Positions 319 to 21,456 of a stretch of DNA of 26,402 bases are shown one piece after another. The notes beneath the pieces are model-generated. The model saw nothing but the letters and a program-made list of their open reading frames with translations. It searched no databases and was not told the origin of the DNA. Both the position numbers and the translations under genes were made by a program. This stretch comes from a virus: positions 1 to 26,402 of IMG/VR virus record IMGVR_UViG_3300012668_000143; one strand, written 5' to 3'. Numbering within the stretch: the stretch's first letter is position 1; each line of letters opens with the position of its first letter.

Positions 319-393
319 TGTTAAAATAGACGAGCCGACTTGGTGCTGATAACACCACGCCGGCTCTAACCAATCTGACTATTAGGGAGTCTC
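319..393 (+). promoter_or_regulatory. HNH leader element 1: extended -10, hairpin, TAACCA, SD
   Basis: TGtTAAAAT 319-327; arms GAGCCGACTTGGTG 332-345 and CACCACGCCGGCTC 353-366; loop CTGATAA; TAACCA 367-372; GGGAG 385-389; ATGGCT 394. Confidence 0.6.
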
Positions 394-1080
394 ATGGCTC
401 AGTCCAGTTTAGCATTAAGCAAACGCTGCCCACGGTGTAAAGAAACAAAGAGCGCAGCCGAGTTTTCCAAGGGCACTGGCAACAGAGACGGATTGCAGTG
501 GCGTTGCCGAGCCTGTTGCGCGGCGTATGTTCAGGCTAATAAGGCACAGTACCAAGCATCGTGGAGAGCGCGCTATGAGGCTAAAACTGACCACTACAAA
601 CAGTTAGCGGTTGAACAGCGCAAGCGTCTAGGCAAGGAAAAAGTAGCCGAGTTAAACAAAGCATACCGGGAGAAACACGCGGCTGCGCTGAGTGAGGCCA
701 GTAAAACATGGAGATCAATTAACGCGGAATATTGTCGCGTGAAGCATCAACAATATTACCAAGAGAACAAAGAGGCGTTTCTTGAGAAGAGAAGACTGTA
801 TTGGGCAAACAATCCAGCCAAGGTTCTAGAACTGTGTCGTCGGCGGACGGCAAAGCAGTTGATGGCAGAGCCAGCATGGGCAGACCGGGCCGCTATGATT
901 GCTCTCTATGAGTTGGCAATACAAAGAACGCAGGAAACAGGGGTGCCGCACCACGTAGATCATATTGTGCCATTGCAAAGTAAAAGAGTATGCGGCCTAC
1001 ACGTCCCGGCCAACATGCAGGTCGTGTCGGCGTCGGAAAATTGCAGCAAGGGAAATAGATGGTGGCCAGACATGCCGTAA
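394..1080 (+). CDS. Free-standing HNH endonuclease with N-terminal Cys4 zinc finger
   Basis: CPRC...CRAC zinc finger, basic helical linker, C-terminal HHVDHIVPLQ...GLHVPANMQ...EN HNH core. The 3' end overlaps the terL start. Confidence 0.9.
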   Translation: MAQSSLALSKRCPRCKETKSAAEFSKGTGNRDGLQWRCRACCAAYVQANKAQYQASWRARYEAKTDHYKQLAVEQRKRLGKEKVAELNKAYREKHAAALSEASKTWRSINAEYCRVKHQQYYQENKEAFLEKRRLYWANNPAKVLELCRRRTAKQLMAEPAWADRAAMIALYELAIQRTQETGVPHHVDHIVPLQSKRVCGLHVPANMQVVSASENCSKGNRWWPDMP

Positions 1081-2594
1081 AAACGCCTACGCGTGGGGAG
1101 CGAAACGCGGCGTGGATCGAAAAATTTTGCATGATCCCAGAAGGGAAGCTCGTCGGCCAGCCAGTTCGACTCAGCAACGAGCAGAAGGATTGGCTGCGTA
1201 AAATCTACGATACACCGACGCGGCGATTCATTCTCAGCATGGGAAGAAAAAATGCGAAAACGGTTTTCGCGGCTTTCCTTTTGTTGTTGCACACTGGCGG
1301 GCCTGAAGCCAAGGCAAATAGCCAACTGTTTAGCGCCGCGCAGTCGCGTGACCAAGCAGGAATATTGTTTCAGTTGGCCGCAAAGATAGTTCGCATGTCG
1401 CTGGACTTATCCACATATATCGGTATTCGTGATACTGCAAAGCAATTGTTTTGCGGCGAACTCGGAACCCTTTACAGGGCGCTATCTGCGGACGCATCAA
1501 CGGCTTATGGTCTCTCGCCGGTATTCGTCGTTCACGATGAACTGGGGCAGGTTCGCGGGCCACGCAGCGAATTGTATGAAGCGCTGGAAACGGCGTGCTC
1601 GGCGCAGGAAAGCCCACTGTCCATAATAATCAGTACGCAAGCGCCGACGGATGCTGATTTGTTGTCGGTCTTGATCGATGACGCGCTTCTCGGAAGCAAG
1701 CCGAGCACAAAAGTAGTGCTTTATACGGCACCGCTCGACGCTGAGCCGTTCTCTGATGACGCGATCATGGCGGCAAACCCGCACTTCAAACTCTTTATGA
1801 ATCAGGATGAAGTGCGCAATTCCGCAGAAGATGCGAGGCGCATGCCGAGCAGCGAGGCCGCCTATCGGAACCTAGTTTTAAATCAAAGAATTGAAGCGCG
1901 TTCCCCATTCATCAGCCGCTCAGTCTGGATGGACAACACCGGCTCGCCGCTTGATGACCTAGAAGGACTGGACGTATACGCCGGTCTTGATCTGTCGGAA
2001 ACATCCGACTTGACCGCGCTTGTGCTGATAGCGCGGCACAACGGCAAGTGGACGGTAAAGCCGATCTTCTGGCTACCGGAACAAGGCTTGGCCGAGAAGT
2101 CGCGCAAGGATCGTGTGCCCTATGACCTGTGGGCGCAGCAAGGATACCTGCTGACGACGCCGGGCGCAGCGATCCGATACGAGTACGTGGCCGAGTACCT
2201 GCGCGGTATCTTCGACCGGCTGAACATCGTGAAGCTGGCATTCGACCGCTACAACATGAAGCATCTGAAGCCGTGGCTGCAACAGGCCGGGTTTACGGAT
2301 GAAGAGTTGGAAAAGTTCGAGGAATTCGGGCAGGGCTATATATCAATGTCGCCTGCGCTGCGGAGCTTGGAAGAATTGTTGCTCAACAAGCAGTTGGAAC
2401 ATGGCGCGCATCCGGTACTGACGATGTGCGCGGCGAATGCGGTTGTGATTAAAGACCCGGCTGGGAATAGGAAGCTGGATAAGTCGAAGTCTACTGGGAG
2501 AATCGACGGCATGATTTCTCTTTGTATGAGTATAGGCGTTGCCAGTACCGAGATCGCCGAGCCGAAAGTCGAATTCCAGGCTTTTTTTCTGTAG
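1059..2594 (+). CDS. terL: Terminase large subunit
   Basis: Walker A-like GRKNAKT, Walker B VVHDE, IISTQA coupling motif, nuclease motifs GLDLS..SDLTA and RIDG. Confidence 0.97.
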   Translation: MVARHAVKTPTRGERNAAWIEKFCMIPEGKLVGQPVRLSNEQKDWLRKIYDTPTRRFILSMGRKNAKTVFAAFLLLLHTGGPEAKANSQLFSAAQSRDQAGILFQLAAKIVRMSLDLSTYIGIRDTAKQLFCGELGTLYRALSADASTAYGLSPVFVVHDELGQVRGPRSELYEALETACSAQESPLSIIISTQAPTDADLLSVLIDDALLGSKPSTKVVLYTAPLDAEPFSDDAIMAANPHFKLFMNQDEVRNSAEDARRMPSSEAAYRNLVLNQRIEARSPFISRSVWMDNTGSPLDDLEGLDVYAGLDLSETSDLTALVLIARHNGKWTVKPIFWLPEQGLAEKSRKDRVPYDLWAQQGYLLTTPGAAIRYEYVAEYLRGIFDRLNIVKLAFDRYNMKHLKPWLQQAGFTDEELEKFEEFGQGYISMSPALRSLEELLLNKQLEHGAHPVLTMCAANAVVIKDPAGNRKLDKSKSTGRIDGMISLCMSIGVASTEIAEPKVEFQAFFL

Positions 2595-2619
2595 CGCACG
2601 AGTACAACTGAATTACCAG

Positions 2620-2642
2620 AACCGGCCCAGTGCCGGTTTTTT
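2620..2642 (+). terminator. Rho-independent terminator after terL
   Basis: AACCGGC-ccagt-GCCGGTT followed by TTTT. Confidence 0.7.
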
Positions 2643-2657
2643 ATTGGGCAAGACGAA

Positions 2658-2879
2658 ATGGAAGAAGCGGAGTGGACAGTCTTACATGCCTTTGAGACAA
2701 AGCGCGATGAACTATACAAACGTGTAGCCGAAATGATGGCAAAGGCAGTGGAAGAGGGGCGGACACTCGATATAGATGAAAGCAAGATATTCGACAACGC
2801 AGTGGATGAAATAGAGTGCATCGATGGTCATGCGAAACGGCTGAAACGATTTGCAAAACTTAGGGATGGAGAGAAATGA
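2658..2879 (+). CDS. 73-aa stand-alone paralogue of the capsid N-terminal delta (scaffold) domain
   Basis: Ungapped 19/55 identity to the segment GFEQKR...RLRKH of the downstream capsid protein; ATGA overlap with the protease-capsid gene. Confidence 0.7.
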   Translation: MEEAEWTVLHAFETKRDELYKRVAEMMAKAVEEGRTLDIDESKIFDNAVDEIECIDGHAKRLKRFAKLRDGEK

Positions 2880-4831
2880 ACCGCGCTTTCAGCAGCATTG
2901 AATTCAAGAGCATAGACGATGACCGGCGCACATTCGAAGGCATTGCCAGCACGCCTGCGACCGATAGGATGGACGATATCGTTGAGCCGTTAGGCGCCAG
3001 ATTCAAATTGCCGCTGTCGTTCCTATATCAGCACGATAGCAAACGACCGATAGGGAATATCACACATGCCACTGCGACCGCAGACGGAATTCGCGTTCGC
3101 GGGTACATAGAAAAACTGGATGGCCCGCCAAGTCTTAAGGAACGGCTCGACGTTGCGTGGGCAGAAATAAAAGCCAAGTTGGTTCGAGGACTATCTATTG
3201 GCTTCAGGGGACTAGAAGAGGAACCGATCAAAGGAACATACGGCACGCGATACAAATCGTGGGAGTGGCTTGAGTTAAGCGCAGTCACGATACCGGCCCA
3301 CCAAGATGCCTGTTTTACAACCATCAAGGCCCTCGACCACGATTTTCTCGCCGCGTCCGGCAAAGAGAAAGCCGCAGTCGTTCGCCTTGGCAAATCCCCC
3401 GGCGCTTCGGGAACATCAATTAAAACCCCGAAAGGAATACCTATGAAAACGACCGCTGAAATTATCGCGGGCTTCGAGCAAAAACGAGCCGCCGTCGTCG
3501 GCAGTATGACAACCATCATGGAGAAGTCCGCCGAAGATGGCGCTACTCTGGATGATGAACAAACCACGCAGTACGACGACGCTGCGACGGAACTGAAAAC
3601 GATCGACGCGCATCTTGAGCGCCTGAGGAAGCATGAGCAGATCATGCTGACGAAGGCGACGGCGATTACGCACGAGAATACGCGCGACGAGACAACGGCT
3701 TCGAATACGCGCAGCAGCATCATCAGCGTGAAGGATAACCTGGAGCCGGGGATCAAGTTCACGCGGTACGTGAAGTGCCTGGCGATGGCGAACGGGAACC
3801 GGATGGAGGCGCTGGAGATTTCCAAGGGCTTGTATCCTGACATGCCGGCGCTGCACACCATTCTGAAAACTGCGGTATCGGCTGGCACGACGCAAGGTAC
3901 TACATGGGCGAAGCCGCTGGTCGAGTATCAGACTTATGCGGGGGACTTCCTGGAGTTCCTGCGCCCGGCGACGGTCATCGGCAAGTTCGGGACGGGGAAT
4001 ATTCCGAATCTACAGCGCGTGCCGTTCAATGTGCACATCAAGGGACAAACCAGCGGAGGCGATGCGTATTGGACGGGCGAGGGACAGGCCAAGCAATTGA
4101 CATCCTTCGACTTCCAAGACATCTACATAGGATTCACAAAGCTGGCGAACATCGCGGTAGTGACAGAAGAGTTGCTGCGGTATTCGAGTCCTGCCGCTGA
4201 AGGAATTATCCGCAAAGCGTTGGCAGATGCGCTTATTGCGCGGATGGATACAGACTTCATCGATCCGGCGAAGGCCGCAGTAGCGAACGTATCGCCAGCG
4301 TCAATCACGAATGGCGTGACGCCGATCACGGCGTCCGGCGGGACGATCGAAGCGCTGCGCACCGACATCTCGGCGTTGTGGAGCGCGTGGCTTACCAACA
4401 ACCTCGGCACGGCCAATGCGGTCTACATCGCGGACGCCATCACCGCGCTCCAGATTGGCACTCTGCGCAATGCTTTCGGCCAACCCGAATTCCCCGGACT
4501 TGGCATCAACGGCGGCATGTTGGATGGTGTACCTGTCATCGTCACTCAGCACGTTCCGCGTGTGACGGCAGGCGGCAAGTTGATCCTCGTCAATGCCAGC
4601 GAAATTTATCTTGCTGACGACGGCGATGTGTCGATCGACATCAGTCGGGAAGCGTCATTGCAGATGGACAATGCGGCGACAAATAACAGCGTTACGCCAA
4701 CCGCGACTACACTTGTTTCTCTTTGGCAATCAAACAGCGTTGGGGTTCGTGCCGAGCGCGCCGTGGGGTGGCAAAAGCGCCGAGCCAGCGCCGTGCAGTT
4801 CATTACGTCAACCGCCTATGATGGAACGTGA
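2876..4831 (+). CDS. HK97-type prohead protease fused to major capsid protein
   Basis: N-terminal DRMDDIV..G, LYQHD..PIG, GLSIGF and ELSAVTIPA protease motifs, then a coiled-coil delta domain and HK97 capsid motifs (WTGEG, TEELL, LDGVPV). Confidence 0.95.
   Translation: MNRAFSSIEFKSIDDDRRTFEGIASTPATDRMDDIVEPLGARFKLPLSFLYQHDSKRPIGNITHATATADGIRVRGYIEKLDGPPSLKERLDVAWAEIKAKLVRGLSIGFRGLEEEPIKGTYGTRYKSWEWLELSAVTIPAHQDACFTTIKALDHDFLAASGKEKAAVVRLGKSPGASGTSIKTPKGIPMKTTAEIIAGFEQKRAAVVGSMTTIMEKSAEDGATLDDEQTTQYDDAATELKTIDAHLERLRKHEQIMLTKATAITHENTRDETTASNTRSSIISVKDNLEPGIKFTRYVKCLAMANGNRMEALEISKGLYPDMPALHTILKTAVSAGTTQGTTWAKPLVEYQTYAGDFLEFLRPATVIGKFGTGNIPNLQRVPFNVHIKGQTSGGDAYWTGEGQAKQLTSFDFQDIYIGFTKLANIAVVTEELLRYSSPAAEGIIRKALADALIARMDTDFIDPAKAAVANVSPASITNGVTPITASGGTIEALRTDISALWSAWLTNNLGTANAVYIADAITALQIGTLRNAFGQPEFPGLGINGGMLDGVPVIVTQHVPRVTAGGKLILVNASEIYLADDGDVSIDISREASLQMDNAATNNSVTPTATTLVSLWQSNSVGVRAERAVGWQKRRASAVQFITSTAYDGT
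3431..3445 (+). promoter_or_regulatory. Internal in-frame RBS and ATG for a capsid-only product (3443..4831)
   Basis: AAAGGAatacctATG at 3431-3445, in frame (codon 190), at the protease/capsid boundary. Confidence 0.6.
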
Positions 4832-4835
4832 TCCG

Positions 4836-4844
4836 TGGTAAAAT
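4836..4844 (+). promoter_or_regulatory. Extended -10 promoter upstream of the c4-like RNA and GIY-YIG gene
   Basis: TGgTAAAAT, 7 nt before the structured element. Confidence 0.5.
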
Positions 4845-4851
4845 GAGAACT

Positions 4852-4906
4852 GCTGCGGATAGGTTTAGCGACCGACACGCTGGCGACCTGAGCCAGCTTC
4901 CGCAGT
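4852..4906 (+). ncRNA. c4/c4-2-like three-stem structured RNA
   Basis: Closing stem GCTGCGGA 4852-4859 / TCCGCAGT 4899-4906; inner stem GGTT-tagc-GACC; inner stem GCTGGC-gacctga-GCCAGC. Loop CCTGA is complementary to downstream TCAGG 4913-4917. Confidence 0.55.
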
Positions 4907-4938
4907 CTCCAATCAGGGTTCACTACAGGAGTGAATGT

Positions 4939-5976
4939 ATGGCGATTTTTATATATGGTCTTGAATGTCCAGTCGACATCGAAGTAAGGTATGTTGGAAA
5001 ATCCAACAACCCAACATCACGATTGGCATCACATATAGCAGCGGCCCGCACAGGGCGCACCAATCATTATTGCGCGCATTGGATAAGGAAACTTCTCGCG
5101 CTTAACTTGTCGCCAAGGATCGTCATATTGGCCGAAGTAGCAAGCGGAGAGCTATGGCAAGAGGTTGAGCGACGCATCATTAAAGATGCCGTGGCGCGAG
5201 GCTGGCGACTAACAAACGCCACGCCCGGAGGAGAAGGGGCAGTGTTCTTGCGGGAAGAAGATCGCCGCAAGTGGAGTGAACAAAAGTCCGCGTTGATGCG
5301 TGCGCTAAACGCAGACCCGAATTTCATAAAAAGTAGCAAATCCAGCGAGGCCAGCGCAAACCGATCAGCATCGGCGAAGAAAAAATGGCAAGACCCAAAG
5401 TACCGCGAAAAGATGTTGGTCAGTAGCGTGACGCGGGAAAGATTATCGGCGGCAAAACGGAAGAATTGGGAGAATCCTGAGTACCGCGCGAAATTGCACA
5501 TGGATGCTATGCGCCAAAAAGCTTCGGCAAACTCTCTGATGCGTAGCGCCGCATTATCGGCGGCAATGACCCAACGATGGGCCAGTCCAGACTTTAGAGA
5601 AAAAATGTCAATTTCACGATTGGATAGTCCAGGCCGTAGAGAAAAGATGTATTCGCCAGAGGCTCTCGCAAAGCGCGCAGCTACACGTCGAAACAATCCG
5701 GAATTAAAGGCGAAGATGGTCGAGGTGAATAAGCGTCCAGAAGTAATAGAGCGCCGCTCAATAGCAATGTCGGCAAGATGGGCGAACCCTGAGTACAAGT
5801 CCAGGCTTGTTGAAAGCGCCAAAAGACGTAGCATAGAAAACCCGTCAACCATTCAAGCCATCACTGCGGCTTCGCATACGCCTGAGGTGAGGGCGCGAGC
5901 CGCCGCAACGCTCAAAGCAACTTGGGCGCGGAAAAAAGCCGCAAAGGTCGCCGCCAAAGCCGCCGCCCAACAATAG
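4939..5976 (+). CDS. Free-standing GIY-YIG endonuclease with C-terminal basic W-x-x-P-x-Y/F-R/K repeats
   Basis: MAIFIYGL...RYVGKS..P.SRL..H, E...I and LTN.T.GGEG motifs; repeats WQDPKYREKM, WENPEYRAKL, WASPDFREKM, WANPEYKSRL; SD AGGAG 4927-4931 favours ATG 4939 over the ORF-track start at 4828. Confidence 0.88.
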   Translation: MAIFIYGLECPVDIEVRYVGKSNNPTSRLASHIAAARTGRTNHYCAHWIRKLLALNLSPRIVILAEVASGELWQEVERRIIKDAVARGWRLTNATPGGEGAVFLREEDRRKWSEQKSALMRALNADPNFIKSSKSSEASANRSASAKKKWQDPKYREKMLVSSVTRERLSAAKRKNWENPEYRAKLHMDAMRQKASANSLMRSAALSAAMTQRWASPDFREKMSISRLDSPGRREKMYSPEALAKRAATRRNNPELKAKMVEVNKRPEVIERRSIAMSARWANPEYKSRLVESAKRRSIENPSTIQAITAASHTPEVRARAAATLKATWARKKAAKVAAKAAAQQ

Positions 5977-5998
5977 TAGTCAGCCTTACCAGAACCAC

Positions 5999-6023
5999 AA
6001 AAGCCGCCACGAGCGGCTTTTTT
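5999..6023 (+). terminator. Rho-independent terminator
   Basis: AAAAGCCGC-cacga-GCGGCTTTT-TT. Confidence 0.8.
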
Positions 6024-6050
6024 CATGCCCGCAAGCACCGAAAGATCATC

Positions 6051-6359
6051 ATGGAAACCGTAAAACTCACCGCATCCAAGGGCTTCAAGTATCGCGGCAA
6101 GCCATTAAAGGTCGGCGATCCGTTCGAGGCGACGGCCAAGGAAGCGGCGCTCTTCAAGAAGACCCGCTTCGCCGCAGATGCTCCCCAAGCGCCGCCGCCT
6201 CCTCCGCTGGATCAACCTAAGCCAGATGAGCCGGAAGAAGAAGCGGCGATCATGGGCAAAGTGTCCACCAAAGACCTGACGGCGGAAGACGACGCTGACG
6301 ACGATGCTCCTAGAACAAAGCGGAAATACACGCGGCGCGATCTGGAAGCTGAAAAATAG
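6051..6359 (+). CDS. Small head-associated protein (post-capsid gene), function unknown
   Basis: METVKLTASKGFKYRGKPLKVGDPFEA, Pro/acidic linker, KRKYTRRDLEAE tail. ATG 6051 lies downstream of the terminator; the ORF-track start at 5922 is inside the previous gene. Confidence 0.75.
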   Translation: METVKLTASKGFKYRGKPLKVGDPFEATAKEAALFKKTRFAADAPQAPPPPPLDQPKPDEPEEEAAIMGKVSTKDLTAEDDADDDAPRTKRKYTRRDLEAEK

Positions 6360-8338: not shown

Positions 8339-8405
8339 AGCGGGGCGGTTGCGCCACAAGGTACAGATTGTCGCGCGAGTGACCGGGTGGAGGTCGGCGG
8401 CATGA
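8328..8405 (+). pseudogene. N-terminal stub of a phage head-closure (head-tail adaptor) gene
   Basis: MGLRAGRLRHKVQIVARVTG...stop matches the RAGxLRHRVxI start typical of SPP1 gp16-like proteins; only 25 aa. Confidence 0.6.
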
Positions 8406-8500: not shown

Positions 8501-9888
8501 CGATAACCAAGTCAGCACCTACCGGCCTGTCCGTACCATCCTATAGCGGCTCCGGGGGATGGTTCGGCGTAGTCCGCGAAGGCTTCAGTGGCGCATGGCA
8601 GCGCAACATCGAAGTCGAGTCGCGCGAGAACATCCTTGCGTTTTCTGCGGTGTATGCCTGCGTGAGCTTGATAGCCGGCGATATATCCAAGCTGCGGCTA
8701 AAACTCACGCGCAAAACGGGCGATGGCGTGTGGGAAGAATTCGACAGTCCAGCGTTCAGCCCAGTGCTACGCAAGCCGAACGGGTATCAGACGCATATTC
8801 AGTTTGTCGAGCAGTGGATCATCGCCAAGCTCATACATGGCAACGCCTATATCTACAAAGAGCGCGATGCGCGCGGCGTGGTGACAGACCTGTATGTCCT
8901 CGACAGCCGGCGCGTTCGTGTATTGGTCGCCGACGATGGCGGTGTCTACTATCAACTGAGCCGGGATGATCTCTCTCAGGTTGGCGATGGTATGACTGTT
9001 CCTGCGAGCGAGATCATTCATGATCGGATGAATTGCTTTTATCATCCGCTGGTCGGCGTAAGTCCTATCTCAGCGTGTGGTGCGTCGTCTACGCAGGGGA
9101 TAAGGATACAGGCCAATAGCGCCAAGTTCTTCGAGAATATGTCGCGGCCAAGCGGACAATTGACGGCTCCGGCGCGAATCGATGATGAAACGGCGGCACG
9201 CTTGAAACGGGAATTCGAAGAAGGGTTTTCAGGCAGCAATCTAGGCCGTCTATTCGTCAGCGGGAACGGGTTGAAATACGAGCCGATAGCGATTCCGCCG
9301 CAGGACGCGCAATTGATTCAGCAATTGGAATGGACTGGCCGCGATGTGGGCAACTGCTTCCATGTTCCGTTGCACAAATTGGGGATCGGACAGCCGACGC
9401 TGAACAACATCGCTGCGCTGAATCAGGACTATTACGCGCAATGTCTGCAAAAGATCATAGAGGACGCAGAAGCTCTTTTGGATGAAGGGCTGGCGCTTCC
9501 TGTAGGGTATTCAGCCGAGTTCGACCTTGAAGGTTTGTTGCGGATGGACCCGCCAGCACGGGCAGAAGTGAATGAGAAGGCAACGCGCGCAGGGATCATG
9601 ACGCCGAATGAGGGGCGACGGAGTATGAATCTGCCACCTGTGACGGGTGGTGACACACCCTACCTTCAGATGCAGAATTATTCACTTAGCGATCTTTCCA
9701 AACGTAGTGCTTTGCCCAATCCGTTTTCCGCTGCTATGCCTACGCAACAGAATCCATCTATACCGCCGCCGACACTGCCGGGAGACGCTACTGGCAAGGC
9801 TCTTGCGATAGATATAGAAGATGAACTGGAAGCCATAATGTTGTTCGCAAAGACGGACTTGAGGAAAGAATTGTGTCTGCCATACTAA
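8476..9888 (+). CDS. Portal protein, HK97 family
   Basis: AVYACV..IA..IS.L, KPN.YQT, L.HGNAY, EIIH, GVSPI, FF.N..RPSG.L, F.VP..KLG and TPNE.R...NLPP..GGD motifs. Confidence 0.97.
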   Translation: MRFFGHDLTITKSAPTGLSVPSYSGSGGWFGVVREGFSGAWQRNIEVESRENILAFSAVYACVSLIAGDISKLRLKLTRKTGDGVWEEFDSPAFSPVLRKPNGYQTHIQFVEQWIIAKLIHGNAYIYKERDARGVVTDLYVLDSRRVRVLVADDGGVYYQLSRDDLSQVGDGMTVPASEIIHDRMNCFYHPLVGVSPISACGASSTQGIRIQANSAKFFENMSRPSGQLTAPARIDDETAARLKREFEEGFSGSNLGRLFVSGNGLKYEPIAIPPQDAQLIQQLEWTGRDVGNCFHVPLHKLGIGQPTLNNIAALNQDYYAQCLQKIIEDAEALLDEGLALPVGYSAEFDLEGLLRMDPPARAEVNEKATRAGIMTPNEGRRSMNLPPVTGGDTPYLQMQNYSLSDLSKRSALPNPFSAAMPTQQNPSIPPPTLPGDATGKALAIDIEDELEAIMLFAKTDLRKELCLPY

Positions 9889-10601
9889 AAAGTTGCACTA
9901 GCTGCAAAGTGGCGAAACCGCTAGATGAGTTCAATAAGAATCATAGACCATGCATAAAGCCAAATCGTAGAGGCCATGGTGTTATATCTCAGTGCAAGGC
10001 ATGCTGTAGCCATCGAGCCGATCCAACGCTGCGAGGCAGACGAGAGCACATAGCAGCCTTAGTGGCGCGGCAGTTGAAAATGTGCGGCACCTGCAAACAA
10101 GGATTACCTCACTCGGCATTCCATAAGCGTGTCGCATCGGATGATGGACTTGCATTTGCATGCAAGCAATGCATAAACGAGAACAGCAAGAAATGGCGGG
10201 AGGCGAATCCTAATGCAAGCAAAGAATGGGAGAAAGCGCATAGCGTGGAACGGCTTGCTTATCGCACTCAATGGCGATCTGAGAATTTAGAGAGTCGTAA
10301 AGAATATATGGCTCGATGGGCAAAAGCCAATCCCCACAAAGTAAACGCGCTAATCGCCAAGCGCACAGCGGCCAAGTTTCAAGCCACAGTATCGTGGTCA
10401 AACCAATCCGCCATTGAAGCCATCTATGCAGAGGCAACGCGCCTGACGCGGGAGACTGGCATTCGCCATGAAGTAGATCACATCGTACCGCTTCAAGGAA
10501 AAATCGTCAGTGGATTGCATTGGGAAGGCAATCTGCAAATCATGACGAAGAGCGAAAACATCGCGAAGTTGAATCGTTACTGGCCGGACGCCCCGACATG
10601 A
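9873..10601 (+). CDS. Free-standing HNH endonuclease (paralogue of 394..1080) with two Cys4 zinc fingers
   Basis: CTSC..CKAC and CGTC..CKQC; HEVDHIVPLQG..VSGLH...NLQ....EN..K.NR.WPD. GTG start overlaps the portal stop; ATGA overlap downstream. Confidence 0.9.
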   Translation: MSAILKSCTSCKVAKPLDEFNKNHRPCIKPNRRGHGVISQCKACCSHRADPTLRGRREHIAALVARQLKMCGTCKQGLPHSAFHKRVASDDGLAFACKQCINENSKKWREANPNASKEWEKAHSVERLAYRTQWRSENLESRKEYMARWAKANPHKVNALIAKRTAAKFQATVSWSNQSAIEAIYAEATRLTRETGIRHEVDHIVPLQGKIVSGLHWEGNLQIMTKSENIAKLNRYWPDAPT

Positions 10602-13169: not shown

Positions 13170-13181
13170 AGGGGAATTAAA

Positions 13182-13610: not shown

Positions 13611-13611
13611 T

Positions 13612-13954
13612 ATGGCATGTGTCTACTTATTAACTACGAATCACAAGAAATGCTATATCGGCATGACAAGCACGCCTGTTGCCGAACGATTCAGAAGCCA
13701 TTGCATGCTGTCCGGAAGAAAAAATAAAGCGATCCTCTGCCATAAAAAAGGCGTTCTCAGACCCGGAAACAAGAGCAAGGCTAGTAGTTGCACAAAAGCG
13801 TGGGAATGCTGATCCTGCCGTGAAAGCGAGGAAGTCTGAAATCATGAAACAGCGAATGGCAGACCCAGAATACCGGCGAAAGGTGATTGAGCGGATGTTG
13901 AAGGCGCGGGGCATTGAGTACGTGGTGGCTCCTGAAGCCGTTACCATTTCCTAA
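13612..13954 (+). pseudogene. Internally deleted, frameshifted GIY-YIG endonuclease remnant
   Basis: MACVYLL...YIGMT....ERFRSH (GIY-YIG N-terminus) joined out of frame near 13703-13712 to FSDPETRARL, NADPAVKARK and MADPEYRRKV repeats like those in 4939..5976. Confidence 0.75.
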
Positions 13955-13967
13955 AGGGACAGCCCAC

Positions 13968-14956: not shown

Positions 14957-14958
14957 GC

Positions 14959-15387: not shown

Positions 15388-15396
15388 GAGACATGC

Positions 15397-17256
15397 TTGG
15401 CCGGTATCCTGATTCCGCGCCGCGCGATTTGGACGCGCCAGCCGCCGTTCTTTCTCCAGGCGCCATACGCAAGAGAACTAGGTTTTACCCACGTCTGGAA
15501 TTTCGGCTCGGGTGAACTGCTTGCGCGGAATGCACGCGACGGAAAATATCTTCTTACCCCGACCGGAGCTATAGGTCTCAATCCTGGAGGCGGTGGGATC
15601 GGGGCGAAATTTCCTGGATCGATAGGGAATCGATTCGAGATAGTTGGCAATCCATTTGCTACATCGACTGGCACATGGTTGTGGGTCGAGAGCGGCACGC
15701 AGACATCAGCCGGCGGCGGCGTGCTGGTGCAAAGTCGATGGGCCACGACCGGAACCAGCGCGCAAGGCGGTTTGCAAATCCGCTTCGGCGGGACAGACAT
15801 TACTATTCTCAAGGCCGAAGTTGCTGGCATCCTTACCGCGACCGACGCGAGAAGCGATTCCGGCGTAGTCAGTTGTGGTGCATTTTCAGTTGCCGGCAAC
15901 AACGGCAGGCATGTGATTTTCGCAAACGGCAGGCAGGCGGCAGAGGTAACACCGACAGTCACTTATGTCCACGGCACGTCGGCTATAGGCTCCGAGAACA
16001 GCGGCGCAACCGGCCACATATCGCTGTCCAGCACTGTCTATTTGCTGGTGTTTGCGCCGGTAGTCATTCCAGACCCGATCATTGCGCAGCTCACGTCGAA
16101 TCCGTGGATGCTGTTTCAGGCTCCGACAAGACGGATTTGGATACCAGGAAGCGCCGTCGGAGTTACGCTTTCCGCATCTGCTGGCTCTTATTCGGTATCA
16201 GGCCAGAGCGCGGCGCTGAAAAGCGCCAGGCAGATCGCATCGACGGCAGGAGACTATAACGCAATAGGGCAAGTTGCAACGCTGGAATATGGGCGAGCAT
16301 TGCCAGCGGCCTTCGGTGCTTATAGTGTCGATGGACAGACAGCAGCGGTCGTTGCGGCGCGTAATATTGGAGCGGCGGCAGGAAGCTACGGCGTAGCAGG
16401 GCAGGACGCTGGACTGACAACATGGCGGGTGGTGTCCGCAAGCGCGGGCGCATACAGCCTCTCAGGAGCTAATGCGGCTCTTGTGTCAGTGCGGCACTTG
16501 CCGGCCAGTAGTGGCACGTATGCGAGCGCCGGACAAAGCGCGGCGCTGCTTACTGGATTGCGACTTGGCGCAAACGCCGCGAGTTATGACCTGACGGGCG
16601 AGAGCGCTACGTTCTGGATCGCGCGCGCGTCAGGTCTGGAAGCTGGAAGCTACGCGATTGCCGGTCAAGGCGCGATGCTGGTGTACGGCACCGCAGCCCA
16701 AGTGCTTGCCGCAGCACCAGGGGTGTTCAGTGTAAGCGGGCAAATCGCTTCGCTGGCGAAAACGTCGAAACTGTCGCTGGCCGCTGGCACGCATGCAGTC
16801 GCCGGGTCGCCAGCCGCGCTGCGGATAAGCCGGATTATTGCAGCAGCAGCAGGCAGTTATGGAATCATCGGCAGTGCAGCATCGCTGAGTATCCGCGCGG
16901 CACAGGCCGTGCTCGTTGCGAGTCCCGGATCATTCAGTCTTACCGGGCAGAGCGCCGCAATCAAGGTTACAAGACGGCTTGCGAGTGGCAGCGGATTGTA
17001 CGCCGTCGCAGGTCAGCAGAGCGTTCTCAGACGCACGGCCTTGGTCAACGCGAATGCCGGAGACTATTCATCAACCGGCCAGCAGGTAACGTTTGCGTAC
17101 TACCGCAGGATAGCAGCGTCGTCAGGCAGTTTACTGGTAACAGGGGCGGCGGCTGATCTTGTCAGAACCGTCGTGGTATCCGCTTTCGTGCACGGCAATC
17201 GCCGGGTCTTCGAAATGAGCGGGCGAAAGCGCGTCGTGTTGGTCAAGCGTGAGTAG
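15397..17256 (+). CDS. Putative fibre: N-terminal LamG/ConA-like domain plus 15 approximately 22-aa Ala/Gly/Ser repeats
   Basis: AGGAG SD then TTG; N-domain ending HVIFANG...IG...I.QL..NPW.LF; repeat consensus L.A.AGSY.V.GQ.A.L...R. Confidence 0.75.
   Translation: MAGILIPRRAIWTRQPPFFLQAPYARELGFTHVWNFGSGELLARNARDGKYLLTPTGAIGLNPGGGGIGAKFPGSIGNRFEIVGNPFATSTGTWLWVESGTQTSAGGGVLVQSRWATTGTSAQGGLQIRFGGTDITILKAEVAGILTATDARSDSGVVSCGAFSVAGNNGRHVIFANGRQAAEVTPTVTYVHGTSAIGSENSGATGHISLSSTVYLLVFAPVVIPDPIIAQLTSNPWMLFQAPTRRIWIPGSAVGVTLSASAGSYSVSGQSAALKSARQIASTAGDYNAIGQVATLEYGRALPAAFGAYSVDGQTAAVVAARNIGAAAGSYGVAGQDAGLTTWRVVSASAGAYSLSGANAALVSVRHLPASSGTYASAGQSAALLTGLRLGANAASYDLTGESATFWIARASGLEAGSYAIAGQGAMLVYGTAAQVLAAAPGVFSVSGQIASLAKTSKLSLAAGTHAVAGSPAALRISRIIAAAAGSYGIIGSAASLSIRAAQAVLVASPGSFSLTGQSAAIKVTRRLASGSGLYAVAGQQSVLRRTALVNANAGDYSSTGQQVTFAYYRRIAASSGSLLVTGAAADLVRTVVVSAFVHGNRRVFEMSGRKRVVLVKRE
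16168..17175 (+). repeat. 15 degenerate tandem 22-aa (66-bp) coding repeats
   Basis: 13 units of 22 aa and 2 units of 25 aa, from LSASAGSYSVSGQSAALKSARQ to IAASSGSLLVTGAAADLVRTVV. Confidence 0.85.
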
Positions 17257-17273
17257 ATGTGGAATCTGTGCGT

Positions 17274-17768
17274 TTATATGGTGCCGAATTCGTGAACTAG
17301 GCGTTTCGCGGCGAGATAAGCGTCGTGAGCTTGTTCTGGGGACGAGAAGTAGCCGAGATAGATGGGCGTCTTGTTAACCACGATACGCGCCATCCAGCCG
17401 TTGCTCTTCTGGAACGCGCCGAGCAAACCGCTGCCTTGGTTATTGCTGCGCGCCTTACGTTGATTTTGAAGGTTTTGCGACTTAGTTGCGCAGCGCAGAT
17501 TCGACCATTTGTTATTTATTCGGTCGCCATCGCGGTGATCTATCTCTGCGGCAGGCCAGCCGTAAGTCATGTAGAGATAAGCAAGGCGGTGGGCGTAGTA
17601 CCTATAGCCATCTATGCCTATTTGGATGTAACCGGCAGAATGACGAGAGGTAGCAATGGCCCCTGCCTTGGCAGACCAATGATCTATGCGGCGAGTAAAC
17701 AAACCGGTTTCTGGATTGTAGTAAAAAAGTTCGCGGAGACGTTCCGCTGTAAGATTGGCAGCAGCCAT
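17274..17768 (-). CDS. HNH endonuclease with C-terminal AP2-like DNA-binding domain
   Basis: Y.PETG.F, GYI.I, AHRLAY, IDHRDGDRINNKWSNLR, W.ARI......YLGYF...E.AH.AY..AK. Confidence 0.92.
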   Translation of the reverse strand: MAAANLTAERLRELFYYNPETGLFTRRIDHWSAKAGAIATSRHSAGYIQIGIDGYRYYAHRLAYLYMTYGWPAAEIDHRDGDRINNKWSNLRCATKSQNLQNQRKARSNNQGSGLLGAFQKSNGWMARIVVNKTPIYLGYFSSPEQAHDAYLAAKRLVHEFGTI

Positions 17769-17849
17769 GAAGCGTTCCTTCTCAGAAAAGGTGCGGTTGT
17801 GGTTAGAAGCCGGCTTGCGTTCGCAGCGCTTGTCGGCTTCGCTATTTTA
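17769..17849 (-). promoter_or_regulatory. HNH leader element 2: -10, hairpin, TAACCA
   Basis: Minus strand: TAAAAT-agc-GAAGCCGACAAGCG-CTGCGAA-CGCAAGCCGGCTTC-TAACCA...AAGGA...ATGGCT. Confidence 0.6.
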
Positions 17850-17866
17850 AAGCATAGACGACCAAA

Positions 17867-18214
17867 ATGCTTCAAAAACGAACCTCAGAAACATGGCCCT
17901 ATGACTTTGATTGTTCGCTCCTTCTTGGCAAGGATGAGGTCATCACGGCAGTCTCATCGGTAACTGCCGAGCCGACCTTGTCAACGGCCCTTACGTTCGG
18001 CGTGCCCGTGGTAAACGTGGTGCCGGTGCAGTATCCGAATCGGACGGCAGCAGTCGGTAAGGTGATCCAGGTAGTAATAGGCGGTGGTGTAATCGCCGCC
18101 GGCTTATCCCATCAACGCTGCACGATCAGGCTGAAGTTTACAAAGTCGCAGTCTGCCGGAATCGGTGAAGCGACCGCTTATCTTGATCTTGTAGACACGC
18201 CAACGCCGCCATGA
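17867..18214 (+). CDS. Putative fibre adaptor / neck-associated Ig-like protein
   Basis: KR.SE...YDFD, L...E.IT.V and V.V.I.GG pattern of small beta proteins that follow fibre genes; ATGA-coupled to the connector. Confidence 0.65.
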   Translation: MLQKRTSETWPYDFDCSLLLGKDEVITAVSSVTAEPTLSTALTFGVPVVNVVPVQYPNRTAAVGKVIQVVIGGGVIAAGLSHQRCTIRLKFTKSQSAGIGEATAYLDLVDTPTPP

Positions 18215-19017
18215 CTATTCAACTCGTTTCAGCTCCCATCGTAGAACCTGTAAGCCTTGCAGAAACAAAAGTCGCGCTGCGGGTAACTGGCGATGAAGAA
18301 GATGAGTTCATTGCTACACGTATCGTGGCGGCACGCGAGAAGGCTGAACATGAGACCGGACGCGCGTTCATCGCGCAGACGTACCGACTGGTGCTCAATG
18401 CGTTTCCGGCTGATCTGTGGTTTGCCAAGGCGCCAGTGCGAGCGCTATCGTCGGTCAAGTATCTGGACAGCGAAGGAGTATTACAGACGGTCGCACCGAC
18501 CGATTATGTTACTCATCTATGGAGCGATCCGCCGCGTATCGCAGTGGCTAGGGGGGTGACGTGGCCGACGACTTCGACGCAGACTGGAGCGGTCGCAATT
18601 GATTTTCGCGCGGGCTACGCAGTGCCAATCACAAGCGACGCTGGCGCAGATACGATTACGGTGCCGGAGTGGGAGGCGCTTGGCGTCGGCTATCCGGTGC
18701 GGCTGTCGAATGTGGGCGGCGTGCTGCCGTCGCCGCTGAAGCCGAAAACAGATTACTACGTGCAGTCAGTGGTCAGTCCCGGAGTCTACACGCTTGCGGC
18801 TACGCTGGGCGGGACGATGCTCGACATAACCGATGGCGGCACTGGTACGTCTCTGCTCGGAGAAGTGCCGTGGTCAATCCGCGCGTGGATCATGGCGGCG
18901 GTCGGTACGTTCTACGCCAATCGTGAGAATGTTGTTGTGGAGCGCAGCGCAGTGGTGGCACCGATGCCGTTTGTCGATGGATTGCTTGATCGGTATCGGA
19001 CTTATTCTGTGTCCTAA
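18211..19017 (+). CDS. Head-tail connector (HK97 gp6 / phiE125 gp8-like) with an about 80-aa inserted domain
   Basis: P.VEPVSLAE.K..LRV..DEED..I...I.AAR..AE..TGRAF..QT, F.AGY, VP..I..WI...VG..Y.NRE and LLD.YR motifs. Confidence 0.9.
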   Translation: MTIQLVSAPIVEPVSLAETKVALRVTGDEEDEFIATRIVAAREKAEHETGRAFIAQTYRLVLNAFPADLWFAKAPVRALSSVKYLDSEGVLQTVAPTDYVTHLWSDPPRIAVARGVTWPTTSTQTGAVAIDFRAGYAVPITSDAGADTITVPEWEALGVGYPVRLSNVGGVLPSPLKPKTDYYVQSVVSPGVYTLAATLGGTMLDITDGGTGTSLLGEVPWSIRAWIMAAVGTFYANRENVVVERSAVVAPMPFVDGLLDRYRTYSVS

Positions 19018-19020
19018 GCT

Positions 19021-19359
19021 ATGAACCTGTGCGTACATCAGGAAGAACACTATTGGGCGTGGCTCAAGACGGTGGCGCGTCCGAATAATGAGTCGGGCCG
19101 TCTGGTGGATTGGCTTATCGTTGACTCTGGATTGCGGCTTGTTTCAAATGCAAGCGACATGGAACAGATAATAGATGACGTTCTTTTACTTTATGCGGAT
19201 CAGGTTGAAGAGTATCGATCAGGCAATAAAAAGTTGTTCGGATGGTTTCTCGGAAAGGCGATGAAAGCAACGCATGGCAAGGCCGACCCGCAGAAGATGG
19301 CCGGTACGTTGAAGATTAAGTTAGATATCGTTGCTGAATCATGCGCGCCGGAGACCTGA
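19021..19359 (+). CDS. Stand-alone GatB/YqeY C-terminal domain protein (moron)
   Basis: GL..VS....ME.IID.VL.....QVEEYRSG.KKLFGWFLGKAMKAT.GKADP closely follows the GatB C-terminal consensus. Confidence 0.8.
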   Translation: MNLCVHQEEHYWAWLKTVARPNNESGRLVDWLIVDSGLRLVSNASDMEQIIDDVLLLYADQVEEYRSGNKKLFGWFLGKAMKATHGKADPQKMAGTLKIKLDIVAESCAPET

Positions 19360-19670
19360 ACGAGCTGATCGACCTGCAAAAGAAGAGCATCACGCGCGAT
19401 GCGTTGAATGCTGAAGTTGTGACGTGGATCACGATTTATCCGAGCGAGCCTGCGAAGGTGGAATTCATTACGGCGCGTGAAATACATGCCGCAAGCCAGA
19501 TACATGCAGTGACGACATTGCGCGTAACGATTCACATTAAACGAGATGTCACCGCTGAGTGGAGAGCGTTGTGGAACGGCGACGTGCTATCTATTACAGG
19601 GCCGCCGATGCCAAGCCTAAAGCGAGATTATTTGACGCTGCTTTGCGGTTCTGGACTGAATAATGGCTGA
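19341..19670 (+). CDS. Head closure protein (SPP1 gp16-like)
   Basis: MRAGDL...I.LQ.....RD..., W, A.V......RE..AA and LTL.C motifs; syntenic position. Confidence 0.9.
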   Translation: MRAGDLNELIDLQKKSITRDALNAEVVTWITIYPSEPAKVEFITAREIHAASQIHAVTTLRVTIHIKRDVTAEWRALWNGDVLSITGPPMPSLKRDYLTLLCGSGLNNG

Positions 19671-19905
19671 TGCGCGCAGGCTATGTATATTGAGAGTCGC
19701 GCCACAAATGCTAATTAAGGTATTGTCAATGGAAGATGTTGAGATAATTGGTGCATCAGTGGCAACTGACGGAAGTGTGGAATTTATGCTTACCGGACAA
19801 GAATTGCCAGAAGTGCACGATAACGCTCAAATCCCATCAATGACGGCTATGTTCGACGTTGGACAGCCATTTACAGAAGCATTAAAAAATCGTCCAGATG
19901 GCTGA
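19663..19905 (+). CDS. Hypothetical 80-aa inserted protein
   Basis: 8-nt overlaps on both sides; flanked by an ATGGCTGATG direct repeat. Confidence 0.6.
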   Translation: MADARRLCILRVAPQMLIKVLSMEDVEIIGASVATDGSVEFMLTGQELPEVHDNAQIPSMTAMFDVGQPFTEALKNRPDG

Positions 19906-20512
19906 TGGCGTAACAATCCAGGTAAACGGCCTTGCCGAAGTCGAGCGGCTGCTGAATACAGTAGCGGCTGATTTGCGTGGGGGCGTTATCAGGAAGGCGC
20001 TGATTGAGGGCGGCAAGATCATGGTGGCGGATGCCAAGCGGCGCGCACCGGTGCTGAAGAAGGCGAGTAGAACGCGGCGGCCCGGCGTGATGCGCGCTGC
20101 AATAAAGGTACGGTCGAGCAAGTTCGATAAGGGTCAGGCTGGCGTAGTTGGTGTTTATATAAGGGTGTCGGCAACAAAGGCGCAGCGCAGAAGGGCACCG
20201 GTCTCGGGCGATCCATATTTCTATCAATGGGTTGAGGGCGGCCACCTCATCGTGCCCAGGGGCATGGGTACGCGCGGCATGAGCCGGGGTGAAATTCGGC
20301 GGCTCACAAAGCTCGGATTACGCCAGACCATAACGGCTCGACGTGCGACAGCGGCAGCACGGCGTAAATCGGTTGCCACGGGATTTGTCCGACCTTACAA
20401 ATTTCTGGAGCCTGCGTTCAATGCCACAAAGCAAGCGGTAGTTGATAAGTTTAAAGATGCGATAGCTCGGCGCGTAGCACAAGCGAATGCGGTGGTAAGT
20501 GGAAATGGTTAG
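19898..20512 (+). CDS. HK97-gp10 family tail morphogenesis protein
   Basis: V.GL.E....L, RKAL..G, AK.RAPV, FY..WVE.G and PYKFL.PAF motifs. Confidence 0.9.
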   Translation: MADGVTIQVNGLAEVERLLNTVAADLRGGVIRKALIEGGKIMVADAKRRAPVLKKASRTRRPGVMRAAIKVRSSKFDKGQAGVVGVYIRVSATKAQRRRAPVSGDPYFYQWVEGGHLIVPRGMGTRGMSRGEIRRLTKLGLRQTITARRATAAARRKSVATGFVRPYKFLEPAFNATKQAVVDKFKDAIARRVAQANAVVSGNG

Positions 20513-20636
20513 CTGGCCTATCGTCGGAATCTACGTGTACGCGGCGTTCTCGCTGGGCGGTGCAGTGGGAGTGTTGGCGACGTTGAAACTCACGCGGCGC
20601 AGGCGTGAGAACACGGCGAATGGCACAGCCGGCTAG
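20505..20636 (+). CDS. Small single-pass membrane protein (43 aa, below the ORF-track cut-off)
   Basis: MVSWPIVGIYVYAAFSLGGAVGVLATLKLTRRRR...: hydrophobic helix then basic patch; 8-nt overlap with the gp10-like gene. Confidence 0.5.
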   Translation: MVSWPIVGIYVYAAFSLGGAVGVLATLKLTRRRRENTANGTAG

Positions 20637-20651
20637 GAAAGTGGCGCGTGA

Positions 20652-21146
20652 TTACAGCGTGCCGAACGGGTGGATGCGGCGCTTGGCGGCAACGTAGGCG
20701 GCGTGGGCGAGTTCTGGGGTGGAGAAGTTGCCAAGGCGCGTATGTTTACCGTCAAGCACGATGATCGCTCTCCAGCGATTGCCACGCTTCGATACGCCGA
20801 GAAATCCGCATTGATTATCGCGCGTCGGTTCACGCAGGTTTTGCCTATTTTGCCTGTGAATCGCTTCTCGCAGATTATCGAAGCGATTGTTAGATGGGTT
20901 GCCATCAATATGGTCTATTTCATCAATCGGCCATTTGCCGGTCATATAGAACCAGGCAAGACGGTGTGCCCGGTACTTTCGTCCGTGTATTCTGATGCGG
21001 ATGTAGCCATAAGAATCAAGCCCACCGGCAACAGTGCCAGCCTTGGCGAGCCGTGCTCGATTCACACGCCAAACGAACAAGCCAGTATCAGGAAAATACT
21101 CAAGCAGTTCCAACAGACGCGCGAGCGTCAATATGGCCGCAGCCAC
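20652..21146 (-). CDS. HNH-AP2 endonuclease (paralogue of 17274..17768)
   Basis: AHRLAW.YMTG.WP..EIDHIDGNPSNNRFDNLR plus AP2-like C-terminus. GTG 21146 gives MAAAILT (compare MAAANLT); TTG 21152 is the alternative. Confidence 0.92.
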   Translation of the reverse strand: MAAAILTLARLLELLEYFPDTGLFVWRVNRARLAKAGTVAGGLDSYGYIRIRIHGRKYRAHRLAWFYMTGKWPIDEIDHIDGNPSNNRFDNLREAIHRQNRQNLREPTRDNQCGFLGVSKRGNRWRAIIVLDGKHTRLGNFSTPELAHAAYVAAKRRIHPFGTL

Positions 21147-21148
21147 GA

Positions 21149-21382
21149 TCAAGCCGCGTCTATGTTAAATGGTCTATCCGTGACGCGGAGATTGGCAAAT
21201 CGGTTGTCGGCGCGATTGCCATTGATATGCTCGACCTCGCCCGTGGGCCATTGCCCGGTCACATACAGAATGGCAAGATCGTGCGCGAGATAATTTCGTC
21301 CGTCAATCTCGATTTCGATGAAACCGTCTGGACGCTGTGTGCCGGCTGGTGTGCCGATTCGTGAGAAAATGCGTGAAGCCAT
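21149..21382 (-). CDS. Truncated mini-HNH (77 aa, no AP2 domain; possibly a pseudogene)
   Basis: GFI.I.IDGRNYLAHDLA..Y.TG.WP..EVEHINGNRADNRFANLR then an early stop; DH is replaced by EH. Confidence 0.7.
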   Translation of the reverse strand: MASRIFSRIGTPAGTQRPDGFIEIEIDGRNYLAHDLAILYVTGQWPTGEVEHINGNRADNRFANLRVTDRPFNIDAA

Positions 21383-21456
21383 GATCGAAGTGCCTTTCGT
21401 GATTGGTCAGAGGCCAACAGTCGCTAGTAACGACTGTTGGCCTTGCCATTATAGCA
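21383..21456 (-). promoter_or_regulatory. HNH leader element 3: extended -10, perfect 13-bp hairpin, CTGACCA
   Basis: Minus strand: TGcTATAAT-ggca-AGGCCAACAGTCG-TTACTAG-CGACTGTTGGCCT-CTGACCA...AAAGG...ATGGCT. Confidence 0.65.

What the first reader, a model, noticed from the sequence alone, without database searches (positions are those of the whole stretch)
319..21456. One conserved leader architecture in front of three independently inserted HNH units
Seen: leaders at 319-393 (+), 17849-17769 (-) and 21456-21383 (-) all read TA(A/T)AAT, 3-4 nt, a hairpin with 13-14 nt arms and a 7-nt loop, CT(A/G)ACCA, SD, ATGGCT. Elements 1 and 2 share GA(A)GCCGAC...GCCGGCT(T)CTAACCA, including the same A.C mismatch, while their inner stems differ but still pair (GGTG/CACC versus GCG/CGC). 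The downstream proteins belong to two different HNH families (zinc-finger HNH and HNH-AP2) in opposite orientations, so simple gene duplication does not explain the shared leader. Inference: a portable cis-regulatory RNA or operator module that travels with, and probably restrains, free-standing endonucleases. It could instead be a small RNA partner of the nuclease.
Basis: partly seen in the sequence, partly recalled or inferred. Interest (0 to 1): 0.85.

Follow-up and report, generated by a model that had tools for sequence, protein, structure and literature searches.

The report
Antisense RNA brake on phage nucleases
Three selfish DNA-cutting genes in this phage each carry a small control cassette that most likely makes a ~75-base RNA from the opposite strand, covering the gene's ribosome site and start codon to keep the nuclease quiet; it is related to known plasmid and E. 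coli antisense RNAs, but I found no paper describing it on phage nuclease genes.

Summary
The three leaders are real and lie where stated, but the conserved RNA is on the opposite strand. Each copy looks like a ~70-77-nt two-hairpin cis-antisense RNA gene. It starts opposite base +6 of the nuclease ORF, from a -10 box inside codons 5-7 (45/56 hairpin-bearing homologs vs 1/54 controls).

Stem 'A.C mismatches' are G.U pairs on that strand (55:6, 58:8). A compensatory swap in the helix at the start codon occurs only in the antisense-compatible form (12/12). A model built from phage copies alone finds E. coli SymR and IncQ RepX at their exact positions, but no window copy reaches an Rfam threshold.

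The cassette arrives with the nuclease: it is absent at 70 empty terS-terL junctions and opens 3 of 7 filled ones. About two thirds of ~115 homologs precede HNH or GIY-YIG genes; mostly these have the facing sense promoter (58/78 vs 4/37). So it is not HNH-specific and is probably not a nuclease partner.

The likely function is translational repression; no expression data exist. This scan noted the same kind of element earlier on other phages. New here: the RepX link, the strand test and the empty sites.

The parts
319..327 (+). Copy 1 sense promoter, extended -10 (predicted mRNA start near 332-334); the same bases form the U-rich tail of the antisense RNA
   Evidence: sequence; same position in 58/78 nuclease-linked homologs; inferred, not mapped
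325..399 (-). Predicted antisense RNA 1: +1 at 399, stem-loop I (399-368) carrying the anti-start codon and anti-SD, stem-loop II (366-332); 3' end approximate
   Evidence: fold z -4.98 vs -2.35 for the sense strand; model R1 71.6 bits (training member)
406..414 (-). Copy 1 antisense promoter, extended -10 (hexamer 411-406) inside codons 5-7 of the HNH gene
   Evidence: one base from the offset of the experimentally disrupted symR -10
394..1080 (+). Zinc-finger HNH (endonuclease VII-like) gene inserted between terS and terL; its 3' end overlaps the terL start (1059)
   Evidence: PHROG 1035, E 4.7e-21; 70/77 related terS-terL junctions are empty
17844..17849 (-). Copy 2 sense -10
   Evidence: sequence; family position
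17763..17846 (+). Predicted antisense RNA 2: +1 at 17763, stem-loop I 17763-17804, stem-loop II 17806-17840; 3' end approximate
   Evidence: fold z -3.41 vs -0.30 for the sense strand; weak Rfam symR match on this strand, 14.4 bits; R1 52.8 bits
17750..17755 (+). Copy 2 antisense -10 inside codons 5-7
   Evidence: same offset as symR
17274..17768 (-). HNH_3-AP2 endonuclease gene, opposite to the late operon
   Evidence: Pfam HNH_3, PHROG 99; 4 of 7 homologous loci also carry the cassette
21448..21456 (-). Copy 3 sense promoter, extended -10
   Evidence: sequence
21377..21450 (+). Predicted antisense RNA 3: +1 at 21377, weak stem-loop I, perfect stem-loop II 21411-21443; 3' end approximate
   Evidence: R1 38.4 bits; the palindromic stem II folds on both strands, so this copy alone does not tell the strand
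21362..21370 (+). Copy 3 antisense -10, degenerate (G at -12) with an upstream TG; may be weak or dead
21149..21382 (-). Truncated 77-aa HNH_3 ORF directly under control of copy 3
   Evidence: Pfam HNH_3
20652..21152 (-). Full HNH_3-AP2 gene whose TTG start overlaps the stop of the truncated ORF; probably translationally coupled and so indirectly under copy 3
   Evidence: coupling is inferred

Best explanation
Each element is a self-contained expression cassette with two sigma-70-type promoters facing each other about 85 bp apart. The sense promoter, directly before stem-loop II, transcribes the nuclease gene. A second promoter, embedded in codons 5-7 of that gene, makes a ~70-77-nt two-hairpin antisense RNA that starts opposite ORF base +6 and is fully complementary to the mRNA leader, SD and start codon. 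By pairing with the mRNA it blocks translation initiation, as SymR does for symE and RepX for repA. This keeps a DNA-cutting protein off while the phage persists in the cell; translation would occur only when mRNA outruns the RNA (first entry into a naive cell, or lytic read-through). Shown here by sequence analysis: strand, structure, promoter signal, relationship to SymR and RepX, co-insertion with the nuclease. Inferred: transcription, repression and timing.
For: Antisense -10 at a fixed offset in 45/56 hairpin-bearing hits vs 1/54 hairpin-less hits of the same pattern (p 4e-19), 41/56 in an independent set, 5/62 background; weak TTG at -35 with a 17-nt spacer. Sense A.C vs G.U = 55:6 in stem II and 58:8 in stem I, in the set not chosen by folding; composition alone predicts about 2:1. 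Antisense fold is more stable in 113/118. Covariation: 94% of cells paired vs 76% shuffled, 282 two-sided changes vs 84. Start-codon helix: all 12 copies with the C-to-T left variant begin ATGACT, never ATGGCT (non-elements 39:53), while the reverse combination (G.U on the antisense strand) occurs in two genuine copies. Model R1 from phage copies hits SymR from its annotated +1 (32 bits) and RepX (32.6 bits); Rfam symR hits a phage copy at 49.3 bits. In E. coli, mutating the -10 at this offset abolishes SymR (PMC1891008). Cognate pairing is -78 to -107 kcal/mol vs -7 to -16 between copies.
Against: No transcript data. The tail after stem II averages only 4.8 U in 9 nt and does not start at the stem, so it is not a canonical terminator. 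Copy 3 has a degenerate antisense -10. About a quarter of homologs lack a clear antisense -10. Homologs are not phylogenetically independent (the 12 variant copies are about 9 distinct leaders). Repression is assumed from SymR and RepX, not tested.
Confidence: 0.8

Rival explanations
1. The structure acts only on the mRNA: a 5'-terminal stabilising hairpin plus an SD-sequestering hairpin, as in T4-family homing endonuclease leaders, with no antisense transcript.
For: The sense -10 puts the mRNA start at the base of stem II; the SD region is about half paired in the sense fold; T4 precedents exist (PMC2988022).
Against: Wobble pairs fit the antisense strand about 8:1; the combination allowed only on the sense strand is absent; it does not explain the -10 signal inside codons 5-7. 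A secondary role on the mRNA is not excluded.
Confidence: 0.08
2. Antisense RNA as in the best explanation, but serving as a type I toxin-antitoxin (addiction or abortive-infection) pair: loss of the RNA releases a lethal nuclease.
For: SymR and PtaRNA1 are classed as antitoxins in Rfam; the nucleases have intact HNH motifs and could be toxic.
Against: SymR and RepX are very stable RNAs, the opposite of an addiction antitoxin. The cassettes sit at optional insertion sites typical of homing endonucleases, and many target genes are not toxins.
Confidence: 0.07
3. A DNA-level element: an operator bound by the nuclease (I-TevI-type autorepression) or a hairpin end used in mobility.
For: Inverted repeat next to the promoter; the cassette begins within a few bases of the terS stop.
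Against: Arms covary freely and tolerate strand-specific wobbles; downstream proteins have unrelated DNA-binding domains; no second end was seen.
Confidence: 0.03
4. A small RNA partner or guide of the nuclease (HEARO/OMEGA or type III antitoxin-like), or a tRNA mimic.
For: Tight linkage to nucleases; the three window loops are 7 nt.
Against: The same RNA precedes HNH, GIY-YIG, TnpB, helicase-primase, GroES-like and SymE genes, which share no RNA-binding fold. There is no variable guide segment apart from the sequence complementary to its own mRNA. Loop lengths vary from 3 to 12 nt across the family.
Confidence: 0.02

Closest known systems
SymR/symE of E. coli (Rfam RF01809; PMC1891008)
   Same: 77-nt two-hairpin cis-antisense RNA overlapping the first 6 nt of the ORF; promoter embedded in the coding region with the -10 at the same offset; similar linker and stem II loop; reciprocal model hits.
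   Different: The target is SymE under LexA control, not a mobile DNA endonuclease. Window copies score far below the gathering score (14.4 vs 61 at best). Phage nuclease copies have their own -10 abutting stem II.
RepX, the 75-nt copy-number RNA of IncQ plasmids R1162/RSF1010 (Rfam RF00043; PMC8136791)
   Same: Same 5' hexamer, same linker between the hairpins (GUUA in the paper), antisense to the RBS and start codon of repA; R1 hit 32.6 bits; binds FinO.
   Different: Controls a replication helicase gene and plasmid copy number; no sense -10 next to stem II; window copies do not reach the RF00043 threshold.
PtaRNA1 (Rfam RF01811)
   Same: Consensus with the same two-hairpin layout and 5' motif; weak cross-hits on the antisense strand of a phage copy (20.9 bits) and of RepX (28.9 bits).
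   Different: Below threshold (47); the original paper was not available, so its target and tests are known to me only from memory.
FinP/traJ of plasmid F and Sar/ant of phage P22
   Same: Antisense RNA over the ribosome-binding region, promoter inside the first codons of the target (P22 annotation), two hairpins.
   Different: Little sequence similarity: R1 gives FinP 8.3 bits and matches only stem II of Sar (10.6 bits). Analogues in layout rather than shown homologs.
RBS-sequestering hairpins and autorepression of T4-family homing endonucleases (I-TevI, segB, mobE; PMC2988022)
   Same: Same biological aim: tight control of a homing nuclease.
   Different: Those act in cis on the mRNA or through protein-operator binding with T4 late promoters; the review passages read describe no dedicated antisense RNA.

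Membership tests
SymR (RF01809) | Score at or above the Rfam gathering threshold (61 bits) | tested here: not met
   best window score 14.4 bits; best homolog 49.3 bits
SymR (RF01809) | Antisense to a symE (SymE toxin) gene | tested here: not met
   targets are HNH genes; no SymE family among the 25 Pfam families shown for 95 downstream proteins
RepX / Plasmid_R1162 (RF00043) | Gathering score 55 and location opposite IncQ repA | tested here: not met
   14.4 bits for copy 2; the target is not repA
PtaRNA1 (RF01811) | Gathering score 47 | tested here: not met
   no window hit; homolog 20.9 bits
SymR/RepX/FinP-type cis-antisense RNA (architecture) | Two stem-loops folding on the strand opposite the mRNA | tested here: met
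SymR/RepX/FinP-type cis-antisense RNA (architecture) | Promoter embedded in the first codons of the target, start near ORF base +6 | tested here: met
   sequence signal only: 45/56 vs 1/54; degenerate in copy 3
SymR/RepX/FinP-type cis-antisense RNA (architecture) | Full complementarity to the SD and start codon, length 70-80 nt | tested here: met
   +1 to the base of stem II: median 70 nt, range 63-78; anti-SD partly unpaired in 73/99
SymR/RepX/FinP-type cis-antisense RNA (architecture) | The RNA is expressed and represses translation of the target | not testable with these tools
   no RNA holder listed
SymR/RepX/FinP-type cis-antisense RNA (architecture) | Binding by a FinO/ProQ-domain chaperone (shown for FinP and RepX) | not testable with these tools
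   PMC8136791 for the precedent only
Type I toxin-antitoxin system | The protein is toxic and the RNA neutralises it | not testable with these tools
   needs expression tests
Free-standing homing endonuclease cassette | Optional insertion with empty alleles in relatives | tested here: met
   copy 1 site only: 70/77 terS-terL junctions empty; the sites of copies 2 and 3 were not tested
Free-standing homing endonuclease cassette | Cleavage of the empty allele and gene conversion | not testable with these tools
   HNH motifs look intact by inspection

The most novel reading that the evidence does not exclude
SymR, RepX, PtaRNA1 and these phage elements form one unrecognised clan of interchangeable antisense cassettes. 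The phage-nuclease version, with its own facing promoter, works as an entry timer: a burst of nuclease on arrival in a naive cell, before the stable RNA builds up, then copy-specific silence. That would let several homing nucleases be carried safely and fire only when homing is possible.
Probability: 0.3. Interest if true: 0.72.

Novelty: new variant of a known kind. Interest (0 to 1): 0.56.

Why it matters
Temperate phages carry many free-standing nucleases, and how they keep them from cutting their own or host DNA is known mainly for T4-type lytic phages. This gives a widespread, directly testable answer (one silent two-base change should release the brake) and explains why many phage HNH proteins begin Met-Ala-x-x-Ile/Asp-Leu/Ser: the codons double as a promoter. 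It links three separately curated Rfam families into a probable clan, helps correct start-codon annotation, and offers a natural library of compact, mutually orthogonal antisense switches.

Tried and rejected
Rfam: no match at threshold in the window or in short cut-outs of the three copies. Expression: no RNA holder listed; laid DNA contigs cover parts of the locus in other samples but show no empty allele and say nothing on expression. The canonical promoter/terminator scan did not call these elements (it needs a -35 box and an unbroken stem). tRNA-mimic reading (anticodon-like loop plus CCA): not kept, because loop lengths vary widely and the CCA is the complement of the helix that closes stem I. 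U-turn motif in the stem II loop: 61/115 antisense vs 46/115 sense, uninformative. The selection of scan-2 hits used the antisense fold, so strand counts were repeated on scan 1 alone. The other nuclease genes of the window (4939-5976, 9873-10601, 13612-13954) have no copy. Literature searches for an antisense RNA of this kind on phage endonuclease genes found nothing relevant; the library lacks most subscription papers, and the PtaRNA1 and Kim & Meyer 1986 originals could not be read. R-scape is not available; the count of structure pairs was used instead and does not correct for phylogeny.
Full report
OBSERVATION. The window is the first 26.4 kb of a 100.6-kb virus record and holds a head-tail operon with several inserted nuclease genes. 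The three leaders are present at the stated coordinates, with a -10 box, a 13-14-bp hairpin with a 7-nt loop, the conserved hexamer, an SD and the Met-Ala start. No further copy exists in the genome. Copy 1 precedes an endonuclease VII-like zinc-finger HNH gene between terS and terL. Copies 2 and 3 precede HNH_3/AP2-type genes on the opposite strand, and copy 3 heads a truncated HNH ORF overlapping a full one. Rfam has no match at threshold.

A WIDESPREAD FAMILY. Of 78 hits with the complete 5' arm, 71 have ATGG at the expected distance although the pattern did not ask for it. A second pattern without any hairpin letters gave two clear groups: about half with a strong upstream hairpin of varied sequence and half without. 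On a plain MAFFT alignment of 103 copies, 94% of cells pair against 76% in shuffles, with 282 two-sided changes against 84, and slid controls fall to 25-49% (similar). These controls do not remove relatedness.

THE RNA IS ANTISENSE. (1) Read on the opposite strand, the window copies fold into two hairpins with z -4.98, -3.41 and -4.70, against -2.35, -0.30 and -6.64 on the mRNA strand; the last copy is a perfect palindrome. The antisense fold is more stable in 113/118 copies. (2) With strand-neutral scoring, stem appositions that read A.C on the mRNA (G.U on the antisense strand) outnumber the reverse 55:6 in stem II and 58:8 in stem I in the set not chosen by folding; composition alone gives about 2:1. 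(3) The 5' end of the RNA, complementary to the start codon, pairs with the complement of the conserved hexamer. When the hexamer carries T instead of C, all 12 hairpin-bearing hits start ATGACT and none ATGGCT, while chance hits split 39:53. The reverse combination, a G.U on the antisense strand, occurs in two genuine copies (about 9 independent leaders). (4) A TAnnnT box on the antisense strand ends at ORF base +13 or +14 in 45/56 hairpin-bearing hits against 1/54 hairpin-less hits of the same pattern (p 4e-19), in 41/56 of the first set and in 5/62 background genes; a weak TTG appears at -35 with a 17-nt spacer. This places +1 opposite ORF base +6 and explains the conserved start. The RNA runs a median 70 nt to the base of stem II; the tail is U-rich (mean 4.8 of 9) but not a canonical terminator, so the 3' end is uncertain.

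RELATIVES. E. coli symR overlaps symE by exactly 6 nt, folds the same way, and its -10 lies at the same offset; two silent changes there abolish SymR (PMC1891008). A covariance model built only from phage copies finds SymR from its annotated first base (32 bits, E about 5e-8). It also finds the IncQ RNA RepX (32.6 bits), on the strand opposite to the one Rfam RF00043 models, in keeping with the GUUA linker described in PMC8136791. Conversely Rfam symR scores a phage copy at 49.3 bits and PtaRNA1 gives weak cross-hits. FinP and P22 Sar share the layout but barely score. None of these families is reached at its threshold by the window copies, so the element works like them and is probably of the same clan, but is not a member.

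WHAT IT TRAVELS WITH. By my clustering, checked on representatives, about 70 of 99 non-redundant downstream proteins are HNH, endonuclease VII-like or GIY-YIG nucleases. The rest include TnpB, Bro-N, integrase, GroES-like, primase, repressor/icd-like and small Cys-rich proteins. All five model hits in loci fetched by terminase alone precede HNH-type genes. Of 77 related terS-terL junctions, 70 are empty and lack the element; 3 of the 7 filled ones begin with it within a few bases of the terS stop, so it is part of the inserted unit. The sense -10 next to stem II is present in 58/78 nuclease-linked copies but 4/37 others, whereas the antisense -10 is equally common in both (62/78, 28/37; copies not independent). 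Among nuclease genes not picked by the motif, about 9 of 50 carry it, so it is common but not the rule; three other nuclease genes in this window lack it. Cultured carriers include Enterobacter phage CobraSix, Acinetobacter phage Acba_1 and Synechococcus phage Yong-M3-232, and an E. coli chromosomal copy before a GIY-YIG gene.

MECHANISM. Shown by sequence: strand, fold, two facing promoter signals, kinship with SymR and RepX, co-insertion. Inferred: both promoters are host sigma-70 type and so active outside the lytic programme; the small RNA accumulates, pairs with the leader and hides the SD and start codon; the three copies do not cross-react (cognate -78 to -107, non-cognate -7 to -16 kcal/mol). 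Translation would be possible when mRNA exceeds RNA, on entry into a naive cell or under late read-through for the co-oriented copy 1. That timing is a hypothesis by analogy with copy-number and transfer control by RepX and FinP. SymR and RepX are very stable, which argues against an addiction role. No expression data were available.

NOVELTY AND VERDICT. The mechanism class is known; the family on phage homing-type nucleases, with its own facing promoter, is absent from Rfam and from the papers I could search. Earlier agents of this scan reached a similar antisense reading on other genomes. I formed mine before seeing those notes, and they are not counted as evidence. Verdict: real feature, first reading partly right, new variant of a known kind, interest 0.56.

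Noticed in passing
window 21141-21170 (-): Just before the full HNH-AP2 gene the sequence resembles a collapsed leader (a -10-like box, part of the stem end and a GTG-Ala start); possibly the remnant of a fourth copy. The model does not score it.
   Followed up: partly
window 1059-1080: The terL start codon lies inside the 3' end of the inserted HNH gene; in empty alleles terL starts at the terS stop, so the insert supplies a new start for terL.
   Followed up: partly
window 4939-5976, 9873-10601, 13612-13954: Three more nuclease genes without this cassette: a GIY-YIG gene, a second zinc-finger HNH overlapping the portal stop, and a GIY-YIG gene split over two frames.
   Followed up: partly
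window 21467-22417 and 19021-19359: A patatin-like phospholipase gene starts 11 bases from the copy 3 promoter, on the strand of the antisense RNA, and could receive its read-through; a GatB/YqeY-domain ORF lies among the head-tail genes.
   Followed up: no
window 17806-17849 and 21411-21453 (+): For copies 2 and 3, stem II with its U-rich tail lies on the late-operon strand and could attenuate late transcription.
   Followed up: no
window 5947-6023: Weak Rfam isrK match (25.9 bits, threshold 50) on a terminator-like hairpin after the GIY-YIG gene; probably chance.
   Followed up: no
L240:5625-5699: Rfam RF00043 (R1162 antisense RNA) matches the repA mRNA strand, with the start codon inside the model; it appears to be stored in the wrong orientation.
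   Followed up: partly
L125:279-500, L135, L139, L142, L176, L178, L187, L192, L225: Nine small (64-86 aa) Cys-rich phage proteins (no PHROG match for the one tested, L125) carry the same antisense cassette, usually without the sense promoter.
   Followed up: no
L219:6462-7708; L195, L186, L197; L147, L206; L149, L207: The cassette also precedes a TnpB gene, GroES-like genes, primase-helicase genes and repressor/icd-like genes.
   Followed up: partly
L521:1174-1260 (OM868076): The element lies inside the annotated HNH gene of phage Yong-M3-232, so the true start is probably at locus position 1255, not 1084. In phage P1312 (L520:1209-1295) the start codon after the element has decayed.
   Followed up: partly
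L281, L300, L328, L330: Other inserts at the terS-terL junction lack the cassette; in L328 the inserted ORF starts in the terS stop codon (translational coupling).
   Followed up: no
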